The notes under the pieces: generated by a model
The model's input: the letters and a program-made list of their open reading frames with translations, nothing else
Database searches by the model: none
What the model was told of the DNA's origin: nothing
Assembly: GCA_964399295.1 (NCBI GenBank)
Contig: CAYNQD010000001.1
Span: 463,672-527,671, forward strand
Source: an uncultured Candidatus Saccharibacteria bacterium
Lineage (GTDB): Bacteria; Patescibacteriota; Minisyncoccia; Phycocordibacterales; UBA918
Length of the DNA stretch: 64,000 nt
Direction: 5' to 3'
Shown: piece after piece, positions 38,146 through 39,247 of the stretch
Layout of the letters: every line of letters starts with the position of its first letter
Position numbering within the stretch: position 1 is the stretch's first letter
Program-made: the position numbers and the translations under genes

Positions 38146-39247
38146 ATGAAAATTTATAAGAATTTATACTGGTCAATAATTTCTCCTCAGTCCCTATTTA
38201 GGGCTTGGGAGATATTTAAGTCCGACAAAAGGAACAAGCCTGACGTTGCCGAGTTTGAGTTGAACATCGAGCAGAATATCTTCGATCTGTATCGCGATTT
38301 GAAGAATGAAACATATCGGCATGGGCCATACAAAGGATTTTGGATACACGATCCGAAAATCAGACGGATACATAAAGCGGCTGTTCGAGATCGAGTCCTT
38401 CATCACACTACTTTTGCTGTTTTGAATAAGATATTCGAGCCGACTTTTATCGACGATTCGTATTCGTGTCGTATCAATAAAGGTACTCACAAGGGTGTGG
38501 AGAAAGTTGCCAATATGCTTCGTGCAGCGAGCAAAAATAATACTCGCCAATGCTACGCTCTGAAATGCGATGTGAGAAAATTCTTTGATTCCGTCGATCA
38601 CCAAGTGCTTAAAGACATCCTTAATAGGAAAATCAAGGATCAAAAGACGATTTCTCTTCTGGAAGAAATTATTGAGAGTTACGAGAAAAGCGGAACTACG
38701 AGAGAGAGAGAGAGAGAGAGAGAGAGAGAGTAAAACGCTGTCGCTTTTTACTATAAATACCAATAAAGGGGTGCCCATCGGCAACCTGACTTCGCAGATT
38801 TTTGCCAACATTTATATGAACGAGTTTGATCAATTCGTTAAGCATGGACTTCGTGTGAAAAATTATGCGCGATACACCGACGATTTCATGATTATATCAG
38901 AAGACAAGAAGTATCTCGAAGAATTGTTGCCGAAATTGCAGGAGTTTCTGAGAGAAAAACTGAAACTCGAATTACATCCGAACAAGATATCTATTCGGAA
39001 ATTCCATGAAGGTATAGATTTCCTCGGGTATGTGATATTTCCACATTACCGACTGCTACGAGCGAAAACCAAAAAGAGGGTTTTGAGGAATATACGCAAG
39101 AAAATGGCGTGCTATCAGAAAGGTCTGATTCCTGAAAATCACTTACATCAAAGCATGCAGTCTTACTTAGGTGTTTTGTCCCACACGAACACTTACGAGC
39201 TGACAGAGAATTTGAAGAACCAATATTGGTATTGGCTTAAAGAATAA
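38146..39247 (+). pseudogene. DGR-type reverse transcriptase, reading frame interrupted by an (AG)15 repeat (track ORFs 38146..38733 and 38585..39247)
   Basis: RT motifs 1-3 in the first ORF (RRIHKAAVRDRVLHH; FIDDSYSCRINKGTHKGV; ALKCDVRKFFDSVDH). In the second: DGR-diagnostic motif 4 (PIGNLTSQIFANIYMNEFD), catalytic YTDD (YARYTDDFMII) and motifs 6-7. The frames differ by +1 across the repeat. Confidence 0.75.
38701..38730. repeat. (AG)15 dinucleotide simple-sequence repeat inside the RT gene
   Basis: Read directly: acg(ag)15taa. Encodes (RE)n in either frame; one added repeat unit or two removed units would fuse the two RT ORFs. Confidence 0.9.

What the first reader, a model, noticed from the sequence alone, without database searches (positions are those of the whole stretch)
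38690..38740. (AG)15 dinucleotide repeat splits the DGR reverse transcriptase into two frames
The RT N-terminal half (motifs 1-3) ends ...GTT(RE)5 followed by a stop. Motifs 4-7 continue in the +1 frame after the same (AG)15 tract. Gain of one AG unit or loss of two would restore a single RT ORF of about 367 aa. Either this is a slipped-strand contingency switch that turns hypermutation on and off, which to my knowledge has not been described for DGRs, or it is a homopolymer/dinucleotide sequencing or assembly error. Both possibilities matter for interpreting the element.
Basis: seen in the sequence. Interest (0 to 1): 0.7.

Follow-up and report, generated by a model that had tools for sequence, protein, structure and literature searches.

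The report
Microsatellite frameshift switch in DGR reverse transcriptase
A pure (GA)15 microsatellite splits the reverse transcriptase of a mutation-targeting retroelement (DGR) in an ultra-small groundwater-type bacterium, and the same length-variable tract recurs at this site in over a hundred related elements, mostly out of frame yet otherwise intact, so it looks like a heritable on/off switch for targeted hypermutation.

Summary
A pure 31-nt GA run (window 38700..38730) splits a DGR reverse transcriptase (RT) into two frames, and +2 or -4 nt restores one ORF of 367 or 365 aa.

It is neither a one-off nor an assembly artefact. In Patescibacteria DGR RTs the same loop, between the LKCD..KFF and PIGNLTSQ motifs, carries pure GA tracts of 15-43 nt in at least 120 metagenome contigs. 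Of 110 scorable loci, 21 are in frame, 43 are +1 and 46 are +2. All 72 tract-less relatives are in frame.

Out-of-frame (OFF) genes are otherwise intact:
- Both halves are full length in 59 of 64 loci.
- Both halves are under strong purifying selection (window vs L078: omega 0.03-0.045 at dS 0.7-0.9).
- They sit next to TR/VR pairs whose mismatches are adenine-specific.

Near-identical strains differ in tract length. One pair is identical over 7.1 kb except for the tract (15 vs 19 nt) and 16 VR changes, all at TR adenines.

Best reading: a slipped-strand contingency switch that gates DGR hypermutation, sampled here in the OFF state. Leaky RNA-level 2-nt slippage cannot be excluded. I found no description of this in the literature I could search. 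Switching within a single population, and its effect on RT expression, remain untested.

The parts
38700..38730 (+). Pure (GA)15.5 microsatellite, the frameshift switch. It encodes (RE)n in every frame and has no stop codon in any frame. In this window the allele is OFF ('+1' state: +2 nt or -4 nt would restore the frame).
   Evidence: the same site carries pure GA tracts of 15-43 nt in relatives
38146..38733 (+). RT N-terminal half (195 aa; fingers, the RT motifs upstream of PIGNLTSQ, through LKCDVRKFFDS). It ends with (RE)5 and then TAA immediately after the tract.
   Evidence: RVT_1 profile 8-106; omega 0.033 vs L078
38729..39247 (+). RT C-terminal half in the +1 frame (SKTLSLFTINTNKGVPIGNLTSQ...YTDD...thumb, to the stop). 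The formal ORF starts at 38585, but only the part from the tract onward is homologous to RTs.
   Evidence: (RVT_1 profile 113-205); omega 0.045 vs L078
37795..38145 (-). Accessory variability determinant (bAvd, 116 aa). It is divergent from the RT, and the two start codons abut (CAT|ATG).
   Evidence: PF22296 bAvd, E 3.5e-17
37632..37750 (+). Template repeat (TR); its sense strand is +, the same as the RT.
   Evidence: 119 nt, 89% identical to the VR; 10-11 mismatches at TR adenines and 2-3 elsewhere
36391..36509 (-). Variable repeat (VR) at the 3' end of the target gene.
36383..37192 (-). DGR target gene (269 aa) with a C-terminal VR; no Pfam hit.

Best explanation
The (GA)n run is a real, hypermutable microsatellite in a surface loop of the RT of a clade of Patescibacteria (CPR) DGRs.

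How it most likely works: slipped-strand mispairing during replication adds or removes GA units. Each 2-nt step rotates the reading frame between one ON state and two OFF states. Because (GA)n encodes the soluble polyampholyte (RE)n and has no stop codon in any frame, ON alleles of many lengths give a working enzyme. OFF alleles truncate the RT between the LKCD..KFF and PIGNLTSQ motifs, so no cDNA is made and the current VR sequence is frozen. A later slip restores the frame and mutagenic retrohoming resumes. The window carries an OFF allele (31 nt, one GA unit short of in-frame) of an otherwise intact, selectively maintained DGR.

Shown: the tract, its recurrence, its length polymorphism between near-identical strains, the frame distribution, the intactness and purifying selection of OFF genes, and recent adenine-specific VR change in strains that now carry OFF alleles.

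Inferred: that slippage happens at the DNA level within populations at high rate, that OFF alleles abolish RT activity, and that the switch is adaptive (locking in a useful VR variant and limiting the cost of continued mutagenesis).
For: 1. Recurrence and purity. Many homologous RTs have (RE)n of varying length in the same loop. At the DNA level these are pure GA runs: L012 31 nt, L008 23, L010 21, L017 17, L078 29.
2. Site specificity. 125 of 130 dinucleotide runs of at least 12 nt in 1.17 Mb of fetched DNA lie at this loop.
3. Frame states. IN 21, +1 43, +2 46 of 110 scorable loci, against 72 of 72 tract-less relatives in frame.
4. The tract is the only lesion. 59 of 64 OFF loci with both halves evaluable have full-length N and C halves, compared with 15 of 18 ON loci.
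5. Purifying selection. Window vs L078, both OFF: dS 0.92/0.71, dN 0.030/0.032, omega 0.033/0.045. OFF-OFF nearest-neighbour pairs have median omega 0.075/0.12, no higher than OFF-IN pairs.
6. The elements are live DGRs. TR/VR pairs were found in 45 of 60 OFF loci of at least 2.5 kb, with 747 adenine vs 54 non-adenine mismatches. ON loci give 149 vs 13.
7. Hypermutability. Strains with 4-5 substitutions in 2.7-6 kb differ by 1-5 repeat units (L136/L183, L148/L165). Five clusters from separate samples reproduce identical lengths, so assembled lengths are reliable.
8. L112 (15 nt, +1) and L144 (19 nt, +2) are identical over 7141 nt except for the tract and 16 VR positions, all at TR adenines. 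The intermediate 17-nt allele would be in frame.
9. ON alleles exist in the window's own sub-lineage: L201/P0007 has a pure 25-nt tract in frame, and P0003 is in frame.
10. The tract-encoded segment (residues 181-213) is a low-confidence loop between well-predicted helices.
Against: - No reads were available, so length heterogeneity within one population, the defining property of phase variation, is not shown for the window or any other locus.
- In-frame alleles are rarer than the 1/3 expected from free drift (21/110, binomial p = 7e-4). This needs an extra assumption, either selection for OFF or leaky expression.
- Window and L078 share the same OFF configuration despite dS of about 0.8, which is somewhat unexpected for a fast switch. 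It could be coincidence or tolerance of OFF.
- The L112/L144 pair shows DGR activity between two strains that are both OFF now. That fits a transient ON allele, but it fits RT production from OFF alleles equally well.
- NG86 dS values are near saturation and the loci are not phylogenetically independent.
Confidence: 0.6

Rival explanations
1. RNA-level rescue. The DNA frame matters little, because RNA polymerase or the ribosome slips by 2 nt on the GA tract. A +/-2 shift keeps perfect pairing of the RNA-DNA hybrid and of the tRNA-Arg(AGA)/tRNA-Glu(GAG) pair, so every allele yields some in-frame product. The tract would then act as a throttle that keeps RT levels low, not as an on/off switch. 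This could coexist with DNA-level switching.
For: - About 80% of sampled alleles are out of frame, yet the genes stay intact and under strong purifying selection.
- VR was rewritten between two otherwise identical strains that are both OFF.
- Window and L078 keep the same OFF configuration across dS of about 0.8.
- Either OFF frame can be corrected by a single 2-nt slip in one direction (arithmetic).
Against: - To my knowledge, bacterial transcriptional slippage is established for homopolymers, not for dinucleotide runs.
- No conserved frame relationship, slippery heptamer or stimulator exists, since all three frames occur within single strain clusters.
- In-frame alleles are significantly depleted relative to 1/3, so the DNA frame is not neutral.
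- No expression data are available.
Confidence: 0.2
2. Non-adaptive mutational hazard. A microsatellite expanded in a permissive loop and now recurrently inactivates the RT. OFF loci are recent pseudogenes on their way to loss, and the purifying-selection signal only reflects the time before inactivation.
For: - OFF alleles are the majority.
- A few loci carry additional lesions: L101, L115, L131 and L050.
- DGR surveys report many inactivated elements (PMC5758913; PMC3521204).
- The tract has been gained or lost about 19 times on a crude tree.
Against: - 92% of OFF loci have no second lesion, a rate no worse than ON loci.
- OFF-OFF pairs have omega of about 0.08-0.12, no higher than OFF-IN pairs.
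- Non-adenine TR/VR mismatches are no more frequent in OFF (6.7%) than in ON loci (8.0%).
- Long pure tracts persist across whole sub-clades without interruptions. Under neutrality, interruptions should accumulate and stabilise the tract.
- VR turnover occurred between identical OFF strains.
Confidence: 0.15
3. Sequencing or assembly artefact. The true tract length gives an intact RT, and the frameshift is an error of short-read assembly across a dinucleotide repeat.
For: - Dinucleotide repeats are prone to PCR stutter.
- Many of the metagenome contigs have low coverage, 2-4x in their names.
- No reads could be inspected.
Against: - A 31-nt tract is shorter than a read and shorter than the final k-mers of common assemblers (my knowledge of assemblers, not tested here).
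- An independent assembly of a relative with 13% nt divergence gives the same out-of-frame length.
- Five strain clusters from separate samples reproduce identical lengths.
- OFF alleles occur in contigs labelled 10-19x (L150, L170).
- The two OFF frames are equally common, which stutter from all-in-frame truths would not produce.
- Lengths show no spike at a particular k.
Confidence: 0.04

Closest known systems
Simple-sequence-repeat contingency loci (slipped-strand phase variation), especially intragenic CT/AG dinucleotide repeats of Helicobacter pylori outer-membrane genes and the tetra-/pentanucleotide repeats of Haemophilus and Neisseria (Moxon, Bayliss and Hood 2006, cited in PMC3521204; the examples are from my own knowledge)
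   Same: A pure intragenic repeat whose unit is not a multiple of three. Repeat number differs between near-identical strains. Frame toggling is the only lesion in an otherwise conserved ORF.
   Different: The host is an uncultured Patescibacteria lineage. The switched gene is not a surface antigen but the enzyme of a second diversity generator. The tract lies mid-gene inside the catalytic domain, in the loop just upstream of the PIGNLTSQ motif, and not near the 5' end. About 80% of sampled alleles are OFF.
Phasevarions: phase-variable DNA methyltransferase (mod) genes with intragenic SSRs (from my own knowledge)
   Same: An SSR inside an enzyme gene switches a downstream programme, not a single structural protein. 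This is hierarchical control by a stochastic switch.
   Different: The downstream programme here is targeted hypermutation of a ligand-binding gene by retrohoming, not epigenetic regulation of many genes.
Diversity-generating retroelements (the Bordetella phage BPP-1 type, and the CPR DGR set of Wu et al. 2018, PMC5758913)
   Same: An RT with the I/LGxxxSQ motif, an Avd accessory gene, a TR/VR pair with adenine-specific mismatches, and a VR at the C-terminus of the target gene.
   Different: The RT is interrupted by a length-variable microsatellite. The target and avd genes are inverted relative to TR and RT. Published surveys I could read treat RTs with premature stops as inactive and discard them (PMC5758913), or list sporadic frameshifts (PMC3521204).
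Programmed transcriptional slippage or ribosomal frameshifting (for example dnaX and prfB, and 'molecular misreading' at GAGAG motifs in eukaryotic mRNAs; from my own knowledge)
   Same: A repetitive tract at the junction of two frames of one functional protein, with both halves conserved.
   Different: No fixed frame relationship or conserved slippery or stimulatory element exists. All three frame states occur among near-identical strains.

Membership tests
Diversity-generating retroelement (DGR) | Reverse transcriptase with the DGR-type motif 4 (I/LGxxxSQ) and a YxDD catalytic box | tested here: met
   PIGNLTSQ and RYTDDF are present in the C-terminal frame. RVT_1 hits cover both halves. More than 5000 homologues were found, mostly Patescibacteria RTs.
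Diversity-generating retroelement (DGR) | TR/VR repeat pair whose mismatches fall at TR adenines | tested here: met
   119-nt pair at 89% identity, with 10-11 mismatches at TR adenines and 2-3 elsewhere.
Diversity-generating retroelement (DGR) | Accessory variability determinant (Avd) next to the RT | tested here: met
   PF22296 bAvd, E 3.5e-17, at 37795..38145 (-).
Diversity-generating retroelement (DGR) | Uninterrupted RT open reading frame | tested here: not met
   The RT is split by the 31-nt GA tract into frames 0 and +1. It is therefore a DGR with a switched-off RT allele, not a canonical intact one.
Diversity-generating retroelement (DGR) | VR lies in a C-type-lectin or Ig-like ligand-binding fold of the target protein | not tested
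   The VR is at the C-terminus of the 269-aa ORF, but there is no Pfam hit. No structure was predicted for the target.
SSR contingency locus (phase-variable gene) | Uninterrupted simple-sequence repeat within the ORF, far longer than chance allows | tested here: met
   (GA)15.5 at 100% purity, the only such run in 64 kb. 125 of 130 runs in 1.17 Mb of related DNA lie at this site.
SSR contingency locus (phase-variable gene) | Repeat number differs among closely related strains while the flanks are conserved | tested here: met
   L136/L183 have 4 substitutions in 6 kb with 18 vs 16 nt. L148/L165 have 5 in 2.7 kb with 31 vs 21 nt. L112/L144 have 0 outside the VR in 7.1 kb with 15 vs 19 nt. This was shown for relatives; no second copy of the window's own strain was found.
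SSR contingency locus (phase-variable gene) | Length changes toggle the frame of an otherwise intact, selectively maintained gene | tested here: met
   Frame states are 21 IN, 43 +1 and 46 +2. 59 of 64 OFF loci are intact. Omega is 0.03-0.12.
SSR contingency locus (phase-variable gene) | High-frequency reversible switching within a clonal population | not testable with these tools
   This needs raw reads or cultures. Only consensus assemblies were available.
SSR contingency locus (phase-variable gene) | The switch changes expression or phenotype (here RT protein and VR diversification) | tested here: inconclusive
   Four OFF strains share one VR while the ON strain L092 has a different VR (19 sites, 18 at TR adenines). 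However, L112 and L144 are both OFF and still differ in VR. No expression data are available.
Programmed recoding site (transcriptional slippage or ribosomal frameshift) | Fixed frame relationship and a conserved slippery or stimulatory signal across homologues | tested here: not met
   All three frame states occur, even within strain clusters. The sequence after the tract differs between lineages.
Split (two-polypeptide) RT | Conserved restart codon for the C-terminal half | tested here: not met
   Only 3 of 89 OFF loci have an ATG in the C frame between the tract and the PIGN motif, and 29 of 89 have any of ATG, GTG or TTG.

The most novel reading that the evidence does not exclude
A two-tier evolvability device is widespread in CPR bacteria. 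A stochastic GA-microsatellite switch inside the RT gates a targeted hypermutation system, and most natural populations sit in the locked (OFF) state. In addition, OFF alleles may not be fully silent, because RNA polymerase or the ribosome can slip by 2 nt on the tract with perfect re-pairing. The same tract would then set both a heritable state and a low leak rate of RT. This would explain VR rewriting between otherwise identical strains that both carry OFF alleles (L112/L144).
Probability: 0.2. Interest if true: 0.9.

Novelty: new variant of a known kind. Interest (0 to 1): 0.78.

Why it matters
DGRs are the only known prokaryotic system of targeted protein hypermutation, and they are especially abundant in CPR/Patescibacteria. 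How their activity is turned on and off in nature is largely unknown.

- If a hypermutable microsatellite in the RT is the switch, mutagenic retrohoming in a large clade of uncultured bacteria is itself phase-variable: populations hedge between diversifying and keeping the current variant.
- The hypothesis is directly testable from existing metagenomic reads and time series.
- It has a practical consequence. Pipelines that require an intact RT ORF will discard or mis-score most of these elements. About 80% of tract-bearing loci look broken, yet they appear to be live elements in a reversible OFF state.
- It would extend SSR contingency loci, known mainly from host-adapted pathogens, to environmental ultra-small bacteria.

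Tried and rejected
- Exact-protein look-up of the window's ORF1 found nothing on record, so the source sample and sister assemblies of the same strain could not be found.
- The tract-anchored pattern gave 0 hits in viral contigs, so there is no sign that this is a phage DGR feature in IMG/VR.
- DNA for P0003 could not be fetched because the sample file was too large.
- Old pseudogene: rejected by dN/dS and by the intactness of both halves.
- Single programmed +1 frameshift at GAG-TAA: rejected because the two OFF frames are equally common and change within strain clusters.
- Split two-subunit RT: rejected because no conserved restart codon exists.
- Structured RNA or intron at the site: Rfam finds only the downstream tRNA-Gln.
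- Extra mismatch clusters between near-identical strains (L084/L188, L183/L092, L135/L179) were tested as possible second VRs. They have no similarity to the TR, so they were not used as evidence.
- Literature: six full-text searches and look-ups in four DGR survey papers found no description of a repeat tract or phase variation in a DGR RT. Paul et al. 2017 on CPR DGRs is not in the library and could not be checked.
- Not done: a second protein search for truncated N-halves, because the DNA loci already answered the question.

Full report
**1. The observation**

The sequence at 38700..38730 is a perfect (GA)15.5 run of 31 nt. It is the only dinucleotide run of five or more units in the 64-kb window.

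ORF1 (38146..38733, 195 aa) ends ...ESYEKSGTT(RE)5 and stops at the TAA that immediately follows the tract. It matches positions 8-106 of Pfam RVT_1. The +1 frame reads (RE)nSKTLSLFTINTNKGVPIGNLTSQ... through RYTDDF to a stop at 39247 and matches RVT_1 positions 113-205. Simulated edits show that +2 nt gives one ORF of 367 aa and -4 nt one of 365 aa. Edits of -6, -2, +4 and +6 nt leave the frame broken.

**2. Context**

The gene belongs to a complete DGR cassette:
- a bAvd gene at 37795..38145 (-), whose start codon abuts the RT start head-to-head;
- a 119-nt TR at 37632..37750 (+);
- a VR at 36391..36509 (-), at the 3' end of a 269-aa target ORF.

The TR and VR are 89% identical, with 10-11 mismatches at TR adenines and 2-3 elsewhere. 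Rfam finds only a tRNA-Gln downstream. The closest relatives are RTs of Patescibacteria/Parcubacteria MAGs.

**3. The tract is a recurrent feature, not a one-off**

A search with the hypothetical fused RT found more than 5000 homologues. Most are 349 aa, but the closest ones are longer. The alignment shows (RE)n stretches of varying length in exactly this loop in many of them, and none in the 349-aa group.

In 80 loci from one-genome-per-species contigs, the stretch is encoded by pure GA runs: L012 31 nt, L008 23, L010 21 and L017 17, all in frame. L078 (94% aa identity to the window) has 29 nt and is out of frame exactly as in the window. All 72 loci without a tract are in frame.

The contigs include Hainich (Hain-H41/H43/H51) samples and many JGI samples.

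Across all 1.17 Mb of fetched DNA, 125 of 130 dinucleotide runs of at least 12 nt sit at this site.

**4. Frame states**

I measured the distance between the LKCD..KFF and PIGNLTSQ motifs in each locus. Of the 110 scorable loci, 21 are in frame, 43 are +1 and 46 are +2. Tract lengths are 15-43 nt, with similar medians in each class. In-frame alleles are fewer than the 1/3 expected by chance (binomial p = 7e-4).

**5. Out-of-frame genes are not decaying**

- Intact halves. Of 64 OFF loci where both halves could be judged, 59 have a normal N half (start about 138 codons before LKCD) and a normal C half (about 155 codons from PIGN to the stop). The figure for in-frame loci is 15 of 18.
- Selection, window vs L078. 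Both are OFF and about 13% divergent in DNA. They give dS 0.92 and dN 0.030 (omega 0.033) for the N half, and dS 0.71 and dN 0.032 (omega 0.045) for the C half.
- Selection across lineages. OFF-OFF nearest-neighbour pairs have median omega 0.075 (N block) and 0.12 (C block), no higher than OFF-IN pairs.
- Live DGR signature. TR/VR pairs with adenine-biased mismatches were detected in 45 of 60 OFF loci of at least 2.5 kb (747 adenine vs 54 other mismatches) and in 10 of 17 in-frame loci (149 vs 13).

**6. The tract changes much faster than anything else**

Loci were clustered by 95% flank identity, giving 14 multi-member clusters from different samples.
- Five of them reproduce the same length in independent assemblies, which argues that assembled lengths are reliable.
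- The others differ only by whole GA units.

Examples:

| Pair | Substitutions | Tract lengths |
|---|---|---|
| L136 / L183 | 4 in 6 kb | 18 vs 16 nt |
| L148 / L165 | 5 in 2.7 kb | 31 vs 21 nt |
| L100 / L110 | 0 in 536 nt | 29 vs 21 nt |

One strain cluster shows all three frames: 16 nt (+2), 18 nt (+1, three samples) and 20 nt (in frame).

The most telling pair is L112 (15 nt, +1) and L144 (19 nt, +2). Over 7141 aligned nt they differ, apart from the tract, at 16 positions. All 16 are inside the VR and all 16 are at TR-adenine positions, and the TRs are identical. Mutagenic retrohoming therefore occurred on a timescale too short for any ordinary substitution, the same timescale as the tract change. 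The intermediate 17-nt allele would be in frame.

In the 16/18/20-nt cluster, the compared out-of-frame strains (L099 and L183) share one VR with no differences, while the in-frame strain L092 has a different VR (19 sites, 18 at TR adenines). This is anecdotal.

**7. The window's own sub-lineage**

This sub-lineage has the flanks ..GCGGAAC..(GA)nTAAAACGCTG.CGCTTTTT.., encoding SKTL[SP]LF. Its alleles are:
- 15 nt (+1): L123 and L155;
- 25 nt (+2): L178;
- 25 nt (in frame): L201, the DNA of P0007;
- 29 nt (+1): L078;
- 31 nt (+1): the window;
- short 9-10-nt in-frame versions: L001 and L050.

ON and OFF alleles therefore coexist among close relatives.

**8. Why this site and this repeat**

An AlphaFold2 model of the fused protein (mean pLDDT 74.9) places residues 181-213, which cover the tract and its flanks, in a low-confidence loop between the well-predicted helices 166-177 and 215-235. 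This agrees with the large natural length variation there.

(GA)n has no stop codon in any frame and always encodes alternating Arg-Glu. I infer this to be a benign, soluble insertion, which would explain why GA is used and not another dinucleotide. This is inference only.

On a crude neighbour-joining tree of 170 RTs, tract-bearing and tract-less genes are interspersed, with about 19 parsimony changes. The tract has therefore been gained or lost many times.

**9. Mechanism**

The data fit a slipped-strand contingency locus. Each 2-nt step cycles the RT through one ON frame and two OFF frames. OFF truncates the enzyme between the LKCD..KFF and PIGNLTSQ motifs and freezes the VR, and a further slip reverses it.

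The excess of OFF alleles suggests that OFF is the favoured resting state, which is plausible if continued mutagenesis of a well-adapted VR is costly. This is inference.

**10. Rival explanations**

- RNA-level rescue. A 2-nt slip of RNA polymerase or the ribosome on the tract keeps perfect pairing and could rescue either OFF frame. This would explain the tolerance of OFF alleles and the VR turnover between two OFF strains. No fixed frame or conserved signal exists, and dinucleotide slippage of this kind is, to my knowledge, not established in bacteria. It remains open and may coexist with the DNA switch.
- Mutational hazard leading to pseudogenes. This is contradicted by the results in sections 5 and 6.
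- Assembly error. This is contradicted by reproducible lengths, by the independent L078 assembly, by OFF alleles in contigs labelled 10-19x, and by the equal use of both OFF frames.
- Split two-subunit RT. This lacks a conserved restart codon: 3 of 89 OFF loci have an ATG in the right place.

**11. Comparison with what is known**

The cassette meets the sequence definitions of a DGR, except that the RT ORF is interrupted.

The tract meets the comparative criteria of an SSR contingency locus: a pure intragenic repeat, strain-level length polymorphism, and frame toggling of an otherwise conserved gene. The two criteria that need reads or cultures could not be tested. These are reversible switching within one population and a demonstrated effect on expression.

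Literature checked:
- Six full-text searches and look-ups in four DGR surveys found no description of a repeat tract or phase variation in a DGR RT.
- Roux et al. 2021 (PMC8144416) and the 2024 MAG survey (PMC11661182) do not mention frameshifts.
- Wu et al. 2018 (PMC5758913) state that over half of candidate DGRs were discarded for premature stops, truncations and similar defects.
- Schillinger et al. 2012 (PMC3521204) list sporadic frameshifted RTs and mention contingency loci only as a contrasting mechanism.
- Paul et al. 2017 on CPR DGRs could not be read, so prior mention there cannot be excluded.

**12. Verdict**

It is a new variant of a known kind: an SSR phase-variation switch placed on the enzyme of a second diversity generator.

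The main uncertainty is whether OFF is truly silent. The main missing piece is read-level heterogeneity.

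Noticed in passing
L014 4049-4070; L021 4082-4099; L046 1581-1600: GA microsatellites also occur elsewhere in CPR DGR cassettes. L014 has one at the extreme C-terminus of the RT ORF (..NNYWLRPSL(RE)n*). L021 has one about 50 nt downstream of the RT stop. L046 has one at the 3' end of an avd-like ORF (..EIGRMLGGWMKSL..(RE)n). GA tracts may therefore be a broader feature of these cassettes.
   Followed up: partly
L088, L129, L142, L157 (tract regions listed): In several loci the GA tract is followed directly by a poly-G run, for example GAGAGgggggggggga. 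These are compound microsatellites with a second slippage-prone element that could shift the frame in 1-nt steps.
   Followed up: no
window 38143-38148: The avd (-) and RT (+) start codons abut head-to-head (CAT|ATG) with no intergenic spacer, so each promoter must lie inside the other gene. The contig of P0003 has the same layout (avd 629-982 on the minus strand, RT 985-2034 on the plus strand). The target gene and avd are inverted relative to TR and RT.
   Followed up: partly
window 47014-47024 and 4891-4899: Long homopolymers: G11 lies between tRNA-Met (46859-46935, -) and a nucleotidyltransferase-like ORF (47050-47730, -), and C9 lies in an intergenic region. They may be further slippage-prone sites or terminator elements.
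   Followed up: partly
window 35960-35989 vs 39367-39396: A 30-nt direct repeat at 77% identity brackets the DGR cassette. The second copy overlaps the 3' part of tRNA-Gln (39373-39444, -). It could be a remnant attachment site of an island carrying the DGR, or a chance match.
   Followed up: no
L084 3501-3700 (vs L188); L183 4449-4688 (vs L092); L135 11237-11468 (vs L179): Near-identical strains carry dense mismatch clusters in short segments that have no similarity to the TR. In L135/L179 the mismatches are mostly spaced in multiples of 3 nt. These may be recombined or otherwise hypervariable segments near the DGR.
   Followed up: partly
L050 815-1609; L012 C-terminal half: L050 has a short tract and is in frame at the loop, but its RT ORF ends early after ..LPKLQLF, although homology continues. 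L012 is from an MFD-series MAG, probably a long-read assembly, and has a shortened C half (113 codons). These may be extra lesions or assembly errors.
   Followed up: no
window 37632-37750 / 36391-36509: The window's TR/VR pair has 2-3 non-adenine mismatches out of 13, a somewhat higher share than the 6.7% average of related loci. This could mean a longer time since the last retrohoming event, or the lower fidelity reported for CPR DGRs (PMC5758913).
   Followed up: partly
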